This document shows, piece after piece, positions 1,165 through 4,256 of a stretch of DNA of 4,749 bases; within the stretch, counting starts at the first letter, position 1; every line of letters begins with the position of its first letter. This DNA comes from a virus (Duplodnaviria; Heunggongvirae; Uroviricota; Caudoviricetes). The position numbers and the translations under genes are program-made. Location: the IMG/VR virus record IMGVR_UViG_2778261527_000011; one strand, written 5' to 3'. The notes below the pieces were generated by a model, which had not been told where the DNA came from, ran no database searches, and saw only the letters and a program-made list of their open reading frames with translations.

Positions 1165-1403
1165 TTTCTTTCCTCTGTTATGCCATCACCCGCGCTCACC
1201 TGGACAGTATGCAGCGGAGACTGAAGCGCCGCAATGCAAGCTTGCCGTGTTGTGAGGTAAGGAGATTTTGGCTTGGTTGGATCTTTACGTGTTGCCTGTA
1301 GGCGGCCTGTGCGTATCCAGTTAATGGCAGTCGGTCTGGATATTTTGAGAAAATGACAGGCCTCATCGAGTGTGAGGCTGTAAGCACACTGACGGCACGC
1401 ATA
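1020..1403 (-). pseudogene. xis: Excisionase-like (winged-helix / HTH_17-type) reading frame with no in-frame start codon; overlaps the int 5' end by about 140 bp
   Basis: Manual translation of the minus strand in the frame offset from ORF 1196..1663 gives ...[54 protein letters not shown]..., matching the excisionase/AlpA-type HTH pattern (compare lambda Xis N-terminus MYLTLQEW...). The frame is open from a TAA at 1404-1406 to a TAG at 1020-1022, but contains no ATG/GTG/TTG before the HTH. The nearest ATG (1400-1402) is in the frame of the upstream ORF. Confidence 0.5.
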
Positions 1404-1663
1404 TTATCAGCATCGATAAAGCAGCGGGTGCCTTCATCTGCAAGATCTTTAGAATAACGGGTAAAGTCATCGATGCTGGCAGTGGAAAGCGCACCACGGA
1501 AACGGAAGCGATTTAAATTAAATTTTTCCAGATCATGAATGCAGAAATTCTCAGGCAATGCTACAGCATCGGCACCAATCTTACTGATAATTTCATTAAC
1601 ACCCTGAGCAGAAATAAGGGCATGGATTTGATTAATTGCGGTTGCGTCTAAGTTCTGAGACAT
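1196..1663 (-). CDS. Hypothetical prophage protein; only the N-terminal ~87 codons (about 1403..1663) look like genuine coding sequence, the rest of the ORF is the wrong-frame reading of the xis-like region
   Basis: Track ORF. ATG at 1661-1663 preceded by GAGGA with 6-nt spacing. The first ~87 aa ([88 protein letters not shown]) look like a folded protein; the remainder is low-plausibility sequence, while the alternative frame over the same DNA encodes a recognisable HTH. Family not assigned. Confidence 0.5.
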
Positions 1664-1728: not shown

Positions 1729-2091
1729 TTAACGACCTGCTGCGCGGAGTTTTCCGTCAGGTTCACCGGCAAGAGTCAGCAACTGTCCCTGGTCTTCCTG
1801 CAGAATAGTCAGGCGACCACCGCGATTGACATACATCGGCGTTTCGGTGGTGTCTTCTTCGGAAATTTTCCCGCGGTTAGTCGGGCGAACATATGAGAGT
1901 TTGTGTTTGATTTTCACTCGGTTCTCATCAAACGGTTCGATTTCTAGGTTGAGAGAGACCTTACCTTTGGTTTTCGTGTTCATCACACCGGAAGCGACTT
2001 CACTGAGAACTGCGCCGATTTTGGTTTCAAATACGCCGCCGTCCAGCTCCCCGATAAATGCCTGCACATCAGTACTGCGTTCGCTAGCCAT
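1729..2091 (-). CDS. Hypothetical small prophage protein (120 aa)
   Basis: Track ORF 1729..2409, trimmed to the ATG at 2089-2091 (MASERSTDVQAFIGELDGG...), which is preceded by a strong SD GAGGAG (2099-2104) with 7-nt spacing. The upstream extension to 2409 translates to low-complexity R/P/G-rich sequence from GC-rich DNA. No family recognised from sequence alone. Confidence 0.7.
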   Translation of the reverse strand: MASERSTDVQAFIGELDGGVFETKIGAVLSEVASGVMNTKTKGKVSLNLEIEPFDENRVKIKHKLSYVRPTNRGKISEEDTTETPMYVNRGGRLTILQEDQGQLLTLAGEPDGKLRAAGR

Positions 2092-2135
2092 TTTGCTGCT
2101 CCTCATCATATCGACCCTGCAAGGTCGGTTAGTTT

Positions 2136-2330
2136 CTCCACAAAACAGAGAAGAACACCTGCGGTGACTGCCGCCCGGATGGATTGGGTTATGAGCCCGT
2201 CGTCCGGTGATGCTCTTCTCTGTTTTGTAAAAAGGACGGTACCAGCCGGAAGCAAGGGTACAAGCTGGTACCGCCAGGACTACACACAGCATAAAGTTGT
2301 GGTGCCGGGTGCCTCCCGGTGCCTGGCGAA
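2136..2330. other. GC-rich non-coding spacer dense in dyad symmetries; candidate structured RNA or regulatory DNA
   Basis: Perfect 15-bp inverted repeat ACAAAACAGAGAAGA (2140-2154) / TCTTCTCTGTTTTGT (2214-2228) enclosing 59 nt that contain further small stems (GCGG/CCGC 2161-2174; CCGGA/TCCGG 2175-2207). Perfect 10-bp hairpin CGGTACCAGC (2237-2246) / GCTGGTACCG (2264-2273) with a 17-nt loop. CCGGG-tgcct-CCCGG (2305-2319), extendable to 9 bp with G-U pairs in RNA. All six-frame ORFs here overlap each other in several frames and translate to junk. Confidence 0.3.
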
Positions 2331-2500
2331 GGTTGCACACCAGGCGGGTGGGTATCCACAGAAGGTCGACTGTCAGCCTCAACCTTAACCCGCGTGCGCT
2401 GAGCCGCATTCACCACAACGCTAAGGATTCTCTCTGGTTGAAAATACTTAGCTGTTATGTGCCTGCTTTTAGCCACATCAGGCGAGGTGGACCTAGTTAT

Positions 2501-2546
2501 TCCCCAACAACAAGGATTCGGTTAATCTGGATATCCCCAACAACAA
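2501..2546. repeat. 13-bp perfect direct repeat TCCCCAACAACAA, two copies 33 bp apart start-to-start
   Basis: Copies at 2501-2513 and 2534-2546, immediately upstream of the candidate start of the rightward ORF (2561). An inverted partial copy of the AACAACAA core lies at 3203-3210 on the other side of that ORF. Confidence 0.6.
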
Positions 2547-2560
2547 TAAGAGTATTCAAT

Positions 2561-3076
2561 GTGATCGCTGAATTAACGGCAGCAATGACGGCTATTCGTG
2601 AAACAGCCCAGATTGCAAAACTAATGAACGAGGCAAAAACTCAAGCTGAAGTAAATGCGGCTATTGGTGAGCTGAACTCAAAGCTTGCGTCTATTCAGCG
2701 CGAATGCGTGTCTCTCTTTGAACTGGTGGGCTCTTATCAAGAAATAAATGCTTCTCTCAAAGCTAAAATTGCAGAATTCGAAAACTTTGAGGCTCAGACG
2801 GAAGGCTATATCCTTAACCAACTTGAGTCGGGTACTTTTGTATACTCGAAGGAGGTAATCGTGAACGGTGGCAGCATAACCATGCATCTTTGCCCAAAAT
2901 GTTTTGGACAAAAGATAGTATCGATACTTCAACCATTCCCGGTTAGCGAAGATGAGCTTTTTCATAAAAGCAGGTGCCTCCACTGTGAAAATAAGTTTCT
3001 GATGAATAAAAATCCGGATTACGTATCGCCTCCATCCATTGAGGAGTTGTCCAGAAAACTTAACGGCAATCTGTAG
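2561..3076 (+). CDS. Hypothetical protein with N-terminal coiled-coil and C-terminal C4 zinc ribbon (CPKC-x24-CLHC); moron-like accessory gene, function unknown
   Basis: Long plus-strand ORF (track 2297..3076) whose 5' extension is GC-rich junk. Plausible starts are GTG 2561 (AAGAG 8 nt upstream) or ATG 2585 (no clear SD). The N-terminal ~70 aa are heptad-like (AQIAKLMNEAKTQAEVNAAIGELNSKLASIQRE...LKAKIAEFENFEAQ); the C-terminus carries two CxxC pairs. Visibly more A+T-rich than the flanking spacer. Followed by an intrinsic terminator. The antisense ORF 2678..2983 has artefact-like composition. Confidence 0.6.
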   Translation: MIAELTAAMTAIRETAQIAKLMNEAKTQAEVNAAIGELNSKLASIQRECVSLFELVGSYQEINASLKAKIAEFENFEAQTEGYILNQLESGTFVYSKEVIVNGGSITMHLCPKCFGQKIVSILQPFPVSEDELFHKSRCLHCENKFLMNKNPDYVSPPSIEELSRKLNGNL

Positions 3077-3115
3077 ATTACTACTGTTGTGGATATCCAG
3101 ATTGTTAAAGAGCTA

Positions 3116-3140
3116 AGCGTCCTGTAGGGCGCTTTTTTGT
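3116..3140 (+). terminator. Rho-independent terminator for the rightward zinc-ribbon ORF
   Basis: Stem AGCGTCC (3116-3122) / GGGCGCT (3127-3133), 7 bp including one G-U pair, loop TGTA, followed by T-run 3134-3138. Begins 40 nt after the TAG at 3074-3076. The reverse strand lacks a T-tract, so it is unidirectional. Confidence 0.6.
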
Positions 3141-3207
3141 TGCTAACGAATCATCCTGGACTTCATATGCCCCAGGCGGCTACTTCGTGGGCGTCCTGCC
3201 TGTTTGT

Positions 3208-3251
3208 TGTTTCTCTTGGGTACATTATGTATCTCATAGGTACATTGTCAA
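3208..3251 (-). promoter_or_regulatory. Candidate pL-like leftward promoter with overlapping operator-like sites (OL analogue)
   Basis: Minus strand reads TTGACA (plus 3246-3251, consensus -35), then a 16-bp spacer, then CATAAT (plus 3224-3229); alternatively a 17-bp spacer with ATAATG. Operator-like imperfect palindromes TGTATC-tcata-GGTACA (3228-3244) and TGTTTC-tcttg-GGTACA (3208-3224) overlap the spacer/-10/start region. Position (just past the repressor-gene terminator) matches lambda OL/pL topology. Confidence 0.45.
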
Positions 3252-3253
3252 GT

Positions 3254-3278
3254 ATAAAAAAACCTGCCGAAGCAGGTT
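3254..3278 (-). terminator. Rho-independent terminator of the repressor gene
   Basis: On the minus strand: stem AACCTGC / GCAGGTT (7 bp perfect) with a UUCG tetraloop, followed by a run of T (plus-strand A-run 3256-3262). Lies 13 nt downstream of the repressor stop at 3291-3293. Confidence 0.75.
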
Positions 3279-3290
3279 CATAAACATTGA

Positions 3291-3965
3291 TTAGGCTTTG
3301 ATTTTGTATCTTCTTGGTTTTCCTGAGAAAATCACAGTTCCAATTATAGAGCAATTACCGTTGATCTTAATGTAAGGCTCAGGCCAGTTTGGGTTTAACG
3401 CTTTGAGATAACGCTGTGTCCCATCTTCTATCAACCTTTTGAAGGTGGTTTCACCTGTATCGTGCATCAATGCAATAACGTCGTCACCGTGGCAGGCAGG
3501 TACTTCAGGATCGACAAAAATCATGTCTCCCGGGCGGTACTCATCAATCATTGAATCACCTATCACCCGCAAGATATAAGTCATTTCCCCACAGGGTACA
3601 GGGCAGGGATACGTTTCTGCTGTGCTCAAATCAACCTCAGAATATCCAACTTCTTTCCATGCTCCGGCCTGTACCCATGATATGACAGGGACTAATGTGA
3701 TTTGTTTATTAGTGATTGAAACATCAGGTTTTTTTGTGATGTTCGTTGTCTGGTGTTCTTGATCGAGCCATCCGACAGGCAGGTCGAAACATTTTTCGAT
3801 GTGTCGTGCCATGCTGTCACCGATATTTTTAGTAGCACCATCTCCCATAAACCTGCTGGTCTGGGTTGGCTCGCGATCAATCATAGTGGCAAAGGAAGAA
3901 TTCCCTCCAACACCATCTCTCAGTTTTCTGGCGTTAGACCGCCGGATGTCATGGATTGTTTTCAT
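3291..3965 (-). CDS. Phage CI-type repressor with C-terminal LexA-like S24 autopeptidase domain (224 aa)
   Basis: Track ORF. The C-terminal domain has the S24 serine-lysine dyad context (RVIGDSMIDEY ... TTFKRL) and an Ala-Gly candidate cleavage site (SWVQAGAWK). Sits divergent from a cro-like gene with palindromic operators between them. No SD upstream of the ATG; the predicted pRM start coincides with the ATG (leaderless, as for lambda cI). Confidence 0.9.
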   Translation of the reverse strand: MKTIHDIRRSNARKLRDGVGGNSSFATMIDREPTQTSRFMGDGATKNIGDSMARHIEKCFDLPVGWLDQEHQTTNITKKPDVSITNKQITLVPVISWVQAGAWKEVGYSEVDLSTAETYPCPVPCGEMTYILRVIGDSMIDEYRPGDMIFVDPEVPACHGDDVIALMHDTGETTFKRLIEDGTQRYLKALNPNWPEPYIKINGNCSIIGTVIFSGKPRRYKIKA

Positions 3966-4055
3966 AACGAAATTAAAACCCCTGTACCGTTAAGGTACAA
4001 GTATCTTGAAGGTTCATTTCAATCATGTAATATGTACACCGGAGGTACATATTGT
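3966..4055. promoter_or_regulatory. Immunity switch region: divergent pRM-like (leftward) and pR-like (rightward) promoters with 17-bp palindromic operators, consensus TGTACC-N5-GGTACA
   Basis: Operators: perfect palindrome TGTACCGTTAAGGTACA (3983-3999); TGTACAccggaGGTACA (4033-4049, 11/12); weaker AGTATCttgaaGGTTCA (4000-4016). pR-like: -35 TTGAAG (4006-4011), 16-bp spacer, -10 TAATAT (4028-4033), then SD GGAGG (4041-4045) and the cro ATG at 4056. pRM-like on the minus strand: -35 TTGTAC (plus 3995-4000), 17-bp spacer, -10 TTTAAT (plus 3972-3977), predicted start at or near the repressor ATG (3965). Confidence 0.55.
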
Positions 4056-4256
4056 ATGAAAGCGTATTGGGACTCTTTAACCAAAGAACAGCAGGGCGAG
4101 TTGGCCGGAAAAGTTGGCTCAACTCCTGGCTACTTACGGCTGGTTTTCAATGGCTATAAAAAAGCCAGTTTTGTGCTGGCTAAAAAACTTGAGCAATGCA
4201 CGTCAGGTGCAATTACGAAATCTGACTTAAGACCGGATATCTATCCGAAAGATTAG
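4056..4256 (+). CDS. Cro-like small DNA-binding regulator (66 aa), YdaS/Cro family
   Basis: ATG at 4056 preceded by GGAGG (4041-4045). Product MKAYWDSLTKEQQGELAGKVGSTPGYLRLVFNGYKKASFVLAKKLEQCTSGAITKSDLRPDIYPKD has the size, position and C-terminal LRPDI-type motif I associate with enterobacterial prophage Cro/YdaS proteins. The track ORF 3753..4256 is the same frame with a spurious N-terminal extension overlapping the repressor gene. Confidence 0.8.
   Translation: MKAYWDSLTKEQQGELAGKVGSTPGYLRLVFNGYKKASFVLAKKLEQCTSGAITKSDLRPDIYPKD

What the first reader, a model, noticed from the sequence alone, without database searches (positions are those of the whole stretch)
2561..3251. Predicted pL transcription would run antisense through the moron gene
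The predicted pL-like promoter (-35 TTGACA at 3246-3251 on the minus strand) fires leftward, directly into the 3' end of the plus-strand ORF. The plus-strand terminator has no T-tract on the minus strand, so it should not stop leftward transcription. This sets up a switch: the moron would be expressed while pL is repressed (lysogeny) and be subject to antisense transcription or collision after SOS induction. The integrase region downstream would then depend on read-through across about 2 kb.
Basis: inference. Interest (0 to 1): 0.45.

Follow-up and report, generated by a model that had tools for sequence, protein, structure and literature searches.

The report
Defence gene facing prophage early promoter
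A repressor-controlled early promoter of an E. coli prophage points straight into the tail end of a backwards-facing anti-phage defence gene (a Rip1 relative), an arrangement that recurs across this gene family, and the gene cassette carries on its opposite strand a perfect loading site for host anti-termination factors that may let the phage transcribe through it.

Summary
A near-consensus leftward promoter (TTGACA-16-CATAAT, 3251-3224) sits just after the repressor gene's terminator. It is overlapped by two operators that match the two perfect operators at the cI/cro junction. It faces the 3' end of a real plus-strand gene (2561-3076), whose terminator works on the plus strand only.

The "moron" is a homologue of Rip1, a prophage pore-forming anti-phage defence protein. 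Being reversed inside a lytic operon is typical of this family: HK446 Rip1 and HK620/HK630 HkaP lie backwards in pL operons, and JBD30 gp30 lies backwards among late genes.

New here is a perfect rrn-type boxA (GCTCTTTAACAA, 3113-3102) on the pL-transcribed strand, at the point where pL transcription enters the cassette. It is kept in homologous cassettes whose coding DNA is only about 66% identical. I infer that it loads Nus factors, so that pL transcription survives about 1.1 kb of untranslated RNA.

I rate this a new variant of a known kind, of moderate interest.

The parts
3291..3965 (-). cI-type repressor gene (224 aa, C-terminal S24 self-cleaving peptidase domain)
   Evidence: ORF. Pfam Peptidase_S24 E 1.5e-26. 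Annotated as cI or ymfK in relatives.
3253..3279 (-). Intrinsic terminator of the cI transcript (tIMM-like), ending 1 nt before the -35 of pL. It keeps repressor-gene transcription out of the region to the left.
   Evidence: 8-bp stem plus TTTTTTT. Annotated as a terminator in SfV and Ayreon. HK620 has an annotated tIMM in the same position.
3224..3251 (-). pL: -35 TTGACA (3251-3246), 16-nt spacer, -10 CATAAT (3229-3224). The expected start is near 3217.
   Evidence: 11/12 match; such a site occurs in 4.9% of random windows. The homologous site is annotated as a promoter in phage Ayreon. Strong promoters sit at the same position in loci of other immunity types.
3208..3244 (.). Two operator dyads, OL1 (3228-3244, TGTATCTCATAGGTACA) between the hexamers and OL2 (3208-3224) over the -10 and start site
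   Evidence: They match TGTAC-N7-GTACA with 1 and 2 mismatches. Perfect copies lie at 3983-3999 and 4033-4049 between cI and cro. There are 5 matches against 1.27 expected. The two copies also appear as 19-nt direct repeat D3.
3145..3217 (-). Conserved untranslated pL leader RNA with a covarying hairpin (stem 3176-3172 / 3159-3155, loop GGCAUAUGAAGU)
   Evidence: Three stem pairs show compensatory changes across 7 loci. Alignment. The leader is found in 51 phage records, unannotated. No similarity to HK022 putL. No Rfam hit.
3115..3140 (+). Intrinsic terminator of the defence gene, effective on the plus strand only
   Evidence: 8-bp stem plus TTTTTT. Fold energy -11.7 kcal/mol on plus against -7.5 on minus, where a conserved U.G pair becomes C-A and no U-tract follows. 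Conserved in most homologous cassettes.
3102..3113 (-). Perfect rrn-type boxA (GCTCTTTAACAA) on the strand transcribed from pL, about 105 nt after the pL start and at the entry to the antisense cassette
   Evidence: The only exact match in the window. In each fetched homologous locus it is the only match with at most 1 mismatch, always on the antisense strand 11-60 nt past the stop codon: 9 exact and 4 with one mismatch among 16 genome loci, and 43 of 48 distinct flank pairs within 1 mismatch (37 exact, 6 with one mismatch). The surrounding 23-nt block is 95.7% identical where the CDS is 65.6%. Positive control: the annotated nutL and nutR boxA of HK620/HK630 differ from it by 1 nt.
3078..3103 (.). 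Right arm of a 26-nt inverted repeat that brackets the gene. It abuts boxA.
   Evidence: Repeat I1, 85% complementary. The core GGATATCCAGATT is conserved. No compensatory changes were seen, so RNA pairing is unproven.
2561..3076 (+). Rip1-family gene (171 aa): N-terminal long helices plus a C-terminal beta domain with CxxC...CxxC.
2524..2549 (.). Left arm of the inverted repeat, just upstream of the ribosome-binding site AAGAG (2548-2552)
   Evidence: Conserved block AATCTGGATATCCCCAAC.
2461..2560 (+). Conserved 5' flank of the cassette. It includes the 30-nt element GCCTG..CCAC..CAGGC..GTGG (2461-2490) and a twice-repeated TCCCCAACAACAA.
   Evidence: 85.2% identical across loci where the CDS is 65.6%. 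The 30-31-nt element lies 70-100 nt upstream of all but two of the enterobacterial rip1 homologues examined (absent from L018 and L019), including HK446, HK620 and HK630, and upstream of a different plus-strand ORF in SfV. No covariation. No promoter of 9/12 or better.
2226..2449 (-). STnc100/PasD-like structured RNA downstream in the pL path, ending in an intrinsic terminator (stem 2275-2263 / 2247-2235, then C-UUUUU at 2234-2229)
   Evidence: Rfam RF02076, 42.4 bits, E 5.8e-7, below the gathering score of 47. Terminator hairpin -23 kcal/mol, z -3.7. A terminator is annotated nearby, upstream of this region on the leftward strand, in SfV. Shared with SfV up to 2490.
1729..2094 (-). yfdP-like gene, the first ORF co-oriented with pL, 1.1 kb from the pL start. 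It is preceded by a long hairpin of -51 kcal/mol (2135-2233).
   Evidence: ORF. PHROG 204. Annotated yfdP. Hairpin z -7.4.

Best explanation
The region is the left boundary of the immunity region of an SfV/PhiR29-like lambdoid prophage.

**Shown or directly read from sequence**
- cI ends in its own terminator.
- Immediately after that terminator lies pL, overlapped by two cI operators.
- pL faces a roughly 650-bp exchangeable cassette (2491-3144). The cassette carries a Rip1-family anti-phage defence gene on the opposite strand, with its own one-directional terminator.

**Inferred mechanism**
- In the lysogen, the cI terminator and repressed pL keep the antisense strand of the cassette silent. 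The defence gene can then be expressed, and its terminator stops its transcript before it reaches pL and cI.
- After repressor cleavage, pL fires and RNA polymerase crosses the leader, passes the weakened mirror image of the terminator hairpin, and transcribes boxA (3113-3102). BoxA recruits NusB/NusE and the other Nus factors. This makes the elongation complex resistant to Rho across about 1.1 kb of untranslated RNA: the antisense cassette, then the STnc100-like RNA, then the yfdP leader.
- The left-arm genes, and eventually xis/int, therefore do not suffer polarity from the inserted gene.
- The same antisense transcription would oppose expression of the defence gene through collision and sense-antisense RNA. 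That would suit a protein triggered by terminase or portal rings, which the induced prophage itself is about to make.
For: **Anatomy**
- Promoter, operators and terminators.
- Cassette boundaries from mosaic comparison with SfV and Ayreon.

**Gene identity**
-.
- Rip1 function, as summarised in PMC13434031.

**Same position in other genomes**
- The cassette sits just downstream of pL and next to a repressor gene in at least 15 contexts, which carry S24-type or short repressors of other immunity types.

**Reverse orientation inside lytic operons in distant homologues**
- HK446 Rip1 lies directly after N.
- HK620 and HK630 HkaP lie between N/hkaQ and cIII.
- JBD30 gp30 lies backwards among late genes.

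**boxA**
- It matches the 12-nt rrn consensus exactly, and in each homologous locus where it is found it is the only match with at most 1 mismatch and lies on the antisense strand at the pL-proximal end.
- It is kept even where the sequence just beyond it has been replaced, as in L013, L072 and L096.
- Its block is 95.7% identical where the CDS is 65.6%.
- The N-dependent phages HK446, HK620 and HK630 have a nutL boxA upstream and none next to the gene, which fits boxA being needed only where no N system is present.
- No N-like gene is present in the window.

**Published knowledge**
- BoxA recruits NusB/E, and rrn and lambda-N complexes shield RNA polymerase from Rho (PMC12360218).
Against: - No expression data of any kind were available.
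- No convincing sigma-70 promoter was found for the defence gene, so 'on in the lysogen' rests on what is reported for Rip1 in other prophages.
- SfV and Ayreon share the same pL and leader but lack boxA, so boxA is not indispensable for this phage group's left operon.
- The antisense RNA is not markedly C-rich and G-poor; C/G is 0.9-1.4, so it is not an obvious strong Rho target.
- From my own recollection of the rrn literature, not checked here, rrn-type complexes read through intrinsic terminators poorly. BoxA alone would then not explain passage of the terminator at 2229-2275.
- Flank conservation could partly reflect recombination at module boundaries together with fast evolution of a defence gene.
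- BoxA can also enhance Rho termination in some contexts.
Confidence: 0.55

Rival explanations
1. Insulation rather than read-through. Leftward transcription from pL mostly stops inside or just beyond the cassette, by Rho on the untranslated antisense RNA, possibly enhanced by boxA, and by the intrinsic terminator at 2229-2275. The main pL product is then a short non-coding RNA (leader, antisense segment and STnc100-like RNA). The left-arm genes and int would depend on other promoters or on rare read-through.
For: - A strong terminator lies on the minus strand (-23 kcal/mol plus U-run).
- 1.1 kb of untranslated RNA precedes yfdP.
- BoxA-bound NusB/E enhances Rho-dependent termination at hisG and suhB (PMC12360218).
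- No N gene is present.
Against: - yfdP through int are co-oriented with pL and have no other consensus-like promoter.
- A cassette that abolished left-operon expression would be selected against, yet it sits at this position in many prophages, including inducible isolated phages such as PhiR29_1 and PhiR49_1.
- The boxA is a perfect rrn-type site far from any ribosome-binding site, unlike the suhB case.
Confidence: 0.2
2. The conserved flanks, including the boxA match, are module-boundary sequences kept similar by frequent homologous exchange between lambdoid phages. They would have no role in transcription elongation. The antisense arrangement would simply be tolerated.
For: - The flanks are more conserved than the CDS.
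- Mosaic breakpoints fall at or next to these blocks: 2490 and 3145 against SfV; L012 breaks inside GGATATC; L013, L072 and L096 break right after the boxA block.
- No covariation was found in the 5' flank or the inverted repeat.
Against: - A linker need not match the 12-nt NusB/E consensus exactly, nor always lie on the strand and at the end where the lytic promoter enters.
- The chance expectation of an exact 12-mer in this window is about 6e-4 (my arithmetic: 2 x 4749 / 4^12).
- The annotated nut boxA sites of HK620/HK630 are the same motif.
Confidence: 0.15
3. The conserved structured pL leader (3145-3217) is the real processive antiterminator, acting in cis like HK022 put RNA or through an unidentified protein. 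BoxA would be at most an accessory.
For: - The leader sits directly after pL in many N-less phages, with and without the cassette.
- Its hairpin shows three compensatory pairs.
- SfV and Ayreon lack boxA, and SfV keeps the leader.
Against: - There is no sequence similarity to HK022 putL.
- Only one short hairpin is supported; the predicted fold of the leader is no more stable than shuffled sequence (z -0.2).
- Ayreon lacks most of the leader as well.
- This rival does not explain why boxA is conserved with the cassette.
Confidence: 0.1

Closest known systems
Rip1 (ring interacting pore 1) of phage HK446 and Pseudomonas JBD-type prophages (Patel et al. 2026, Nature 651:1060, read only through review PMC13434031; PDB 9oox)
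   Same: - Homologous protein of the same length and architecture, with long N-terminal helices and a C-terminal domain carrying CxxC...CxxC.
- Encoded by a prophage.
- Placed backwards inside a lytic operon.
   Different: - Only 27-29% identical.
- No activity, trigger or pore formation was tested for this subfamily.
- Here the gene is the first thing downstream of pL in a phage without N, and the cassette has its own boxA, terminator and conserved flanks, which the HK446 locus lacks apart from the 31-nt upstream element.
hkaP of HK620 and HK630 (annotated 'putative superinfection exclusion protein')
   Same: - A distant homologue (28% identity) on the opposite strand inside an annotated pL operon, so pL transcription runs antisense through it.
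- It has the same 31-nt upstream element.
   Different: - HK620 has N and nutL upstream, and its annotators placed a terminator, tL1, inside hkaP on the pL strand.
- There is no boxA adjacent to the gene.
rrn leader boxA and lambdoid nut boxA (NusB/NusE loading sites)
   Same: - Exact 12-nt rrn consensus on a nascent untranslated transcript about 105 nt after a strong promoter, preceded by hairpins as in rrn leaders (order boxB then boxA).
- Same motif as the annotated nutL and nutR boxA of HK620/HK630.
   Different: - No N protein and no recognisable boxB/N pair.
- The site belongs to an inserted, reverse-oriented gene cassette rather than to the operon leader.
- Binding and function were not tested.
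Reverse-oriented lysogen-expressed genes and convergent-promoter switches in temperate phages (lambda bor against the late operon; coliphage 186 pR/pL interference; lambda pRE and paQ antisense control). These examples are from my own knowledge.
   Same: A gene useful to the lysogen lies opposite to a lytic transcription unit, so induction brings antisense transcription across it.
   Different: In those cases no Nus-loading site is built into the reversed gene's cassette. Here interference is inferred, not measured.
HK022 put RNA (a cis-acting antiterminator RNA in an N-less lambdoid phage)
   Same: A conserved structured RNA lies immediately downstream of pL in phages that lack N.
   Different: There is no sequence similarity and only one supported hairpin instead of two long stems. 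Function is unknown.

Membership tests
Lambdoid pL/OL early-left promoter | Sigma-70 promoter directed away from the repressor gene, immediately after its 3' end | tested here: met
   11/12 match at 3251-3224, 1 nt after the cI terminator's T-run. Such a match occurs in 4.9% of random windows.
Lambdoid pL/OL early-left promoter | Overlapped by operators of the same sequence family as those at the cI/cro junction | tested here: met
   TGTAC-N7-GTACA at 3228-3244 and 3208-3224, against perfect copies at 3983-3999 and 4033-4049.
Lambdoid pL/OL early-left promoter | Heads an operon of co-oriented early-left genes ending with xis/int | tested here: met
   yfdP, the yfdQ remnant and int are all on the minus strand. 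Relatives have the full set.
Lambdoid pL/OL early-left promoter | Repressible promoter activity in vivo | not testable with these tools
   Needs reporter fusions with and without repressor.
Lambdoid pL/OL early-left promoter | N gene and nutL (boxA plus boxB) as first elements of the operon | tested here: not met
   No N-like ORF was found. BoxA is present, but inside the reversed cassette and without an N partner.
Rip1 anti-phage defence proteins | Sequence homology to a solved or characterised Rip1 | tested here: met
   Family profile against 9oox_L: E 6.7e-19 over residues 5-156. Pairwise E 3e-11 to HK446 Rip1 and 3e-20 to JBD30 gp30.
Rip1 anti-phage defence proteins | N-terminal helical part plus C-terminal ring-binding domain | tested here: met
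Rip1 anti-phage defence proteins | Prophage-encoded | tested here: met
Rip1 anti-phage defence proteins | Protects against superinfecting phage; forms pores on binding terminase or portal rings | not testable with these tools
   Known for Rip1 only through review PMC13434031. Nothing is known for this subfamily. PADLOC 2023 has no model for it.
Moron (autonomous extra gene in a phage genome) | Present in some closely related genomes and absent from others at the same site | tested here: met
   2491-3144 is replaced by other DNA in SfV, and 2277-3193 in Ayreon.
Moron (autonomous extra gene in a phage genome) | Own terminator | tested here: met
   3115-3140 on the plus strand.
Moron (autonomous extra gene in a phage genome) | Own promoter, active in the lysogen | tested here: inconclusive
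   No plus-strand site of 9/12 or better. The only conserved candidate is weak: TTCCCC-15-GTTAAT at 2500-2526, which reads GATAAT in L006 and L013. The characterised HK446 locus has none either.
boxA / Nus-factor antitermination site | Match to the NusB/E-binding consensus GCUCUUUAACAA on the transcribed strand downstream of a promoter | tested here: met
   12/12 at 3113-3102 on the minus strand, about 105 nt after the pL start.
boxA / Nus-factor antitermination site | Evolutionary conservation beyond its surroundings | tested here: met
   43 of 48 distinct flank pairs match within one mismatch. The block is 95.7% identical where the CDS is 65.6%. It is retained where the sequence beyond it has been replaced.
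boxA / Nus-factor antitermination site | Binds NusB/NusE and changes termination downstream | not testable with these tools
   Needs binding assays and reporter assays in nus mutants.
HK022-type put RNA | Sequence and two-stem structure like putL or putR | tested here: not met
   No similarity between the window's leader and the HK022 pL region. Only one 5-bp covarying stem is supported.
STnc100 / PasD sRNA (RF02076) | Covariance-model score at or above the Rfam gathering threshold | tested here: inconclusive
   42.4 bits against a threshold of 47, E 5.8e-7, with the full-length model matched.

The most novel reading that the evidence does not exclude
The Rip1-type cassette may be a self-contained insert-anywhere defence module that brings its own polarity suppressor. 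It carries a Nus-factor loading site on its antisense strand, so a lytic operon can be transcribed through it without an N protein. That same induced, termination-resistant antisense transcription would shut the defence gene off when the prophage starts making its own terminase and portal rings, preventing self-triggered abortive lysis. The 26-nt inverted repeat that abuts boxA and brackets the gene could let the antisense segment be looped out and processed, as Nus complexes do for the stems flanking 16S rRNA.
Probability: 0.25. Interest if true: 0.75.

Novelty: new variant of a known kind. Interest (0 to 1): 0.5.

Why it matters
Prophage defence genes must be on in the lysogen but must not cripple the prophage's own lytic programme. 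How that conflict is solved is largely unstudied.

This locus suggests a simple architectural answer that can be tested with a few mutants. The gene is placed backwards at the mouth of the repressor-controlled early promoter, insulated on both sides by one-directional terminators, and given a Nus-loading boxA on the other strand so that it is not polar on the operon.

If boxA works this way, it would extend host rrn-type antitermination to phages that lack N. It would also show that a mobile defence cassette can carry its own licence to be transcribed through. In addition, the analysis assigns a likely function, as a Rip1-like pore-forming defence, to a hypothetical protein present in about 100 complete E. 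coli genomes and many other Enterobacterales.

Tried and rejected
1. **HK022 put homology of the pL leader.** I reconstructed putL from the HK022 record and checked it against the residue numbering in the put structure paper's supplement. No similarity was found.
2. **An uninterrupted 'empty site'.** I searched viral contigs for AATCTGGATATCCAGATT, the palindrome expected if the gene had inserted into a boxA-hairpin site. The 4 hits are all unrelated sequences, so the idea has no support.
3. **RNA pairing of the 26-nt inverted repeat and structure in the 5' flank.** There are no compensatory changes; the variants seen are mismatches, or wobbles that favour neither strand consistently. Both remain unproven.
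4. **A promoter for the defence gene.** Nothing reaches 9/12 here or in HK446.
5. **Rho-site composition of the antisense RNA.** There is no clear C-rich, G-poor stretch.
6. **PADLOC, Pfam and PHROG annotation.** None names a function.
7. **Literature.** A search for hkaP returned only unrelated papers, and the primary Rip1 paper is not in the held library.
8. **Caveat.** I assembled that tblastn query from the aligned part of 9oox_L printed and added placeholder residues at the N-terminus. Only residues 30-160 matched, and only that match was used, to locate the HK446 gene.
9. **Chance as an explanation for the promoter.** An 11/12 site is expected in about 5% of windows, but its position and operators argue against chance.
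Full report
**What the window is.** The 4,749 bases are the left arm and immunity region of an SfV/PhiR29-like lambdoid prophage of E. coli.
- They are 99% identical to phages PhiR29_1/2 and PhiR49_1 and to prophages beside a tRNA-Arg gene in about 100 complete E. coli genomes.
- Gene order: int (1-1164, minus); a remnant that fuses the N-terminus of YfdQ to xis-region DNA (1196-1663, minus); yfdP (1729-2094, minus); a non-coding stretch; a plus-strand ORF (2561-3076); cI with an S24 peptidase domain (3291-3965, minus); cro (4056-4256, plus); a cII-like gene (from 4300, plus).
- Compared with every relative found, the window lacks 1,872 bp between positions 1381 and 1382 (yfdT, an EaE-like gene, yfdR and most of yfdQ). 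The junction occurs in none of the fetched loci.

**Checking the observation.**
- A site this good turns up in 4.9% of random windows of this size, so the hexamers alone do not settle it. The context does.
- The -35 lies 1 nt after the U-run of the cI terminator (3279-3260).
- Two copies of the dyad TGTAC-N7-GTACA overlap the promoter, at 3228-3244 (one mismatch, between the hexamers) and 3208-3224 (two mismatches, over the -10 and start). Two perfect copies lie between cI and cro (3983-3999, 4033-4049). That is five matches against 1.27 expected, and only 2 of 200 shuffles reached five.
- Ayreon's annotators marked the homologous site as a promoter.
- In loci whose repressors are only 32-41% identical and whose operators differ, an equally strong promoter sits at the same distance upstream of the same conserved leader.
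- The plus-strand terminator (3115-3134 plus TTTTTT) is real and strand-specific. A conserved U.G pair in its stem becomes a C-A mismatch on the other strand, where the stem is followed by AGCUCUUUAAC rather than a U-run; fold energy is -11.7 against -7.5 kcal/mol.
- No minus-strand terminator-like site lies between the pL start and 2561.

**What the 'moron' is.** The ORF is a genuine gene.
- It has 115 homologues across Enterobacterales at 40-99% identity, all about 170 aa and all starting M/V-IAEL. That fixes the start at GTG 2561. Four cysteines are invariant, and RefSeq calls the same CDS.
- Pfam, PHROGs and PADLOC give no function.
- A profile of the family matches PDB 9oox chain L, 'ring interacting pore 1 (Rip1)' of phage HK446, at E 6.7e-19 over almost the full length, including both CxxC pairs.
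- According to review PMC13434031, which summarises Patel et al. 2026, Rip1 is a prophage-encoded single-protein defence. It is harmless alone, assembles around the small-terminase or portal ring of an infecting phage, and forms a membrane pore. I could not read the primary paper.
- Membership by sequence and fold is therefore met. Activity is untested for this subfamily.

**The arrangement is typical of the family.**
- Comparison with SfV and Ayreon shows that 2491-3144 is an exchangeable module in a slot just downstream of pL.
- In at least 15 other genomic contexts the homologue lies in the same slot, next to a minus-strand repressor gene (S24-type, or a short repressor of another immunity type) and opposite to it.
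- The distant homologues behave the same way. HK446 Rip1 lies backwards directly after N in the pL operon. HkaP of HK620 and HK630 lies backwards between N/hkaQ and cIII, and HK620's annotators called it a putative superinfection exclusion protein and placed tL1 inside it on the pL strand. JBD30 gp30 lies backwards among late genes.

**The new element: a boxA on the antisense strand.**
- Reading the strand that pL transcribes, the mirror image of the terminator hairpin is followed after one base by GCUCUUUAACAA (3113-3102). This is an exact match to the rrn boxA, the NusB/NusE binding site, and the only exact match in the window.
- In 16 genome loci whose proteins are 46-62% identical to this one, the same 12-mer occurs on the antisense strand 11-60 nt past the stop codon: exactly in 9 and with one mismatch in 4. 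In each roughly 7-kb locus where it occurs it is the only match with at most one mismatch.
- Over 48 distinct flank pairs, 37 match exactly and 6 with one mismatch. It is missing only where the 3' flank is recombined away or the gene is truncated or frameshifted.
- It is kept in lineages where the sequence immediately beyond it, including the terminator, has been replaced (L013, L072, L096).
- Against 13 divergent loci, the window is 65.6% identical in the CDS, 85.2% in the 100-nt 5' flank and 95.7% in the 23-nt block that holds boxA.
- As a control, the annotated nutL and nutR boxA of HK620 and HK630 are the same motif with one change.
- Those N-dependent phages have no boxA beside their Rip1 homologue. 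The N-less phages carry it in the cassette.

**How it most likely works.**
- Shown: the anatomy, the homology and the conservation.
- Inferred for the lysogen: the cI terminator and repressed pL keep the antisense strand silent. The defence gene's own terminator keeps its transcript out of pL and cI.
- Inferred after induction: pL transcribes the leader, boxA and then about 1.1 kb of untranslated RNA before the first co-oriented ORF, yfdP at 2094.
- Untranslated antisense RNA of that length is the normal prey of Rho. BoxA-bound Nus factors shield RNA polymerase from Rho in rrn and lambda-N complexes (PMC12360218). On this reading the cassette carries its own polarity suppressor.
- The same transcription would oppose expression of a gene whose product is triggered by terminase or portal rings, which the induced prophage is about to make. 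That step is my speculation.

**Weak points.**
- No promoter for the gene was found here or in HK446.
- SfV and Ayreon manage without boxA.
- The antisense RNA is not strikingly C-rich.
- BoxA can also promote Rho termination in some contexts.
It is the 3' end of an RNA that matches Rfam STnc100 at E 5.8e-7, just below the curated threshold. From memory, rrn-type complexes pass intrinsic terminators poorly. Read-through to yfdP and int may therefore be partial, or may need another factor.

**Another candidate factor.**
- The 70 nt after the pL start are conserved in 51 phage records (SfV, SfII, SfIV, ST64B, ZF40, mEp237 and others), annotated in none of them as an RNA or regulatory feature.
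- They contain a hairpin with three compensatory base-pair changes.
- The leader does not resemble HK022 putL, which I reconstructed from the HK022 record and checked against the residue numbering in the put structure paper's supplement. Rfam has nothing there. Its role is open.

**Other features of the cassette.**
- A 26-nt inverted repeat brackets the gene (2524-2549 and 3078-3103), and its right arm abuts boxA.
- A 30-31-nt element, GCCTG..CCAC..CAGGC..GTGG, lies 70-100 nt upstream of all but two of the enterobacterial homologues examined (it is absent from L018 and L019). This includes HK446, HK620 and HK630, where the rest of the 5' region is unrelated, and it also lies upstream of a different plus-strand ORF in SfV.
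- Neither feature shows covariation, so I cannot say whether they act as RNA, as protein-binding DNA or as recombination linkers.
- A search for an uninterrupted palindrome that would mark an empty insertion site found only unrelated sequences.

**Verdict.**
- Antisense transcription from pL across the gene is very likely, and the comparative evidence suggests the cassette is adapted to it.
- The lysogeny/induction switch and the fate of the transcript remain untested.
- The read-through distance and the obstacles on the path were mis-stated.
- The gene is a new member of the Rip1 family, and the reversed placement is known from HK620 and HK446. The cassette-borne boxA in N-less phages appears to be undescribed in the literature I could search.
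- Overall this is a new variant of a known kind, of moderate interest.

Noticed in passing
window 1381/1382 (ORF 1196-1663, minus strand): The window lacks 1,872 bp that are present in the closest relatives compared across it (PhiR29_1 directly; the best-matching phage records and complete E. coli genomes align in two pieces): yfdT, an EaE-like gene, yfdR and most of yfdQ. The deletion fuses the first ~94 codons of yfdQ to xis-region DNA. The junction GAGGCTGT|AAGCACAC has at most 1-2 nt of microhomology and is found in none of the fetched loci.
   Followed up: partly
window 3145-3217 (minus strand); also L003 5485-5574, L005, L006, L014-L017: An unannotated, conserved leader RNA lies immediately downstream of pL in many temperate phages without N (51 phage records, including SfV, SfII, SfIV, ST64B, ZF40, YeP1 and mEp237). 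It has a hairpin with three compensatory pairs and a conserved loop GGCRUAYGAA. It does not resemble HK022 put and is not in Rfam.
   Followed up: partly
window 2461-2490 (plus strand); L106 2814-2844; L022 2398-2428; L023 2898-2928; L003 4940-4970: A 30-31-nt element, GCCTG(N7-10)CCAC(N2)CAGGC(N3-4)GTGG, lies 70-100 nt upstream of Rip1-family genes that share only 27-28% protein identity. It also lies upstream of an unrelated plus-strand ORF in SfV. The invariant blocks could form a pseudoknot or two alternative hairpins. There is no covariation and the function is unknown.
   Followed up: partly
window 2226-2449 (minus strand): An STnc100/PasD-like prophage sRNA (Rfam RF02076, E 5.8e-7, 42.4 bits, below the gathering score of 47) with a canonical terminator. 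No promoter of its own is recognisable, so it may be cut out of the pL transcript. Ayreon carries a divergent version of the same RNA.
   Followed up: partly
window 2135-2233 (minus strand): A very stable long hairpin (25-bp outer stem, -51 kcal/mol, z -7.4) lies between the sRNA terminator and the yfdP ribosome-binding site. Its 5' arm contains the terminator's U-run. It is conserved in SfV and Ayreon.
   Followed up: no
window 4072-4083 (plus strand, inside cro); L003 6421-6432; L002 5159-5170: A boxA-like ACTCTTTAACCA (2 mismatches) lies on the pR-transcribed strand 16 nt into cro and is also present in SfV and Ayreon. It could be a weak nutR-type boxA or simply part of a conserved coding sequence; 25 of 200 shuffles gave as many matches.
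   Followed up: no
L003 (SfV U82619.2) 5008-5253 plus strand and 5171-5467 minus strand: In SfV the slot downstream of pL holds a plus-strand 81-aa ORF (PHROG 3311) with a good ribosome-binding site. The original record does not annotate it, and its 3' end overlaps the annotated minus-strand orf33. The slot therefore seems to collect reverse-oriented cargo in general.
   Followed up: partly
L001 (PhiR29_1 PV340556.1) 4262-4990: The phage record annotates the Rip1 homologue with a 71-codon N-terminal extension that overlaps the sRNA region. The alignment of 25 homologues and the RefSeq annotation support the shorter 171-aa product starting at GTG (window 2561).
   Followed up: yes
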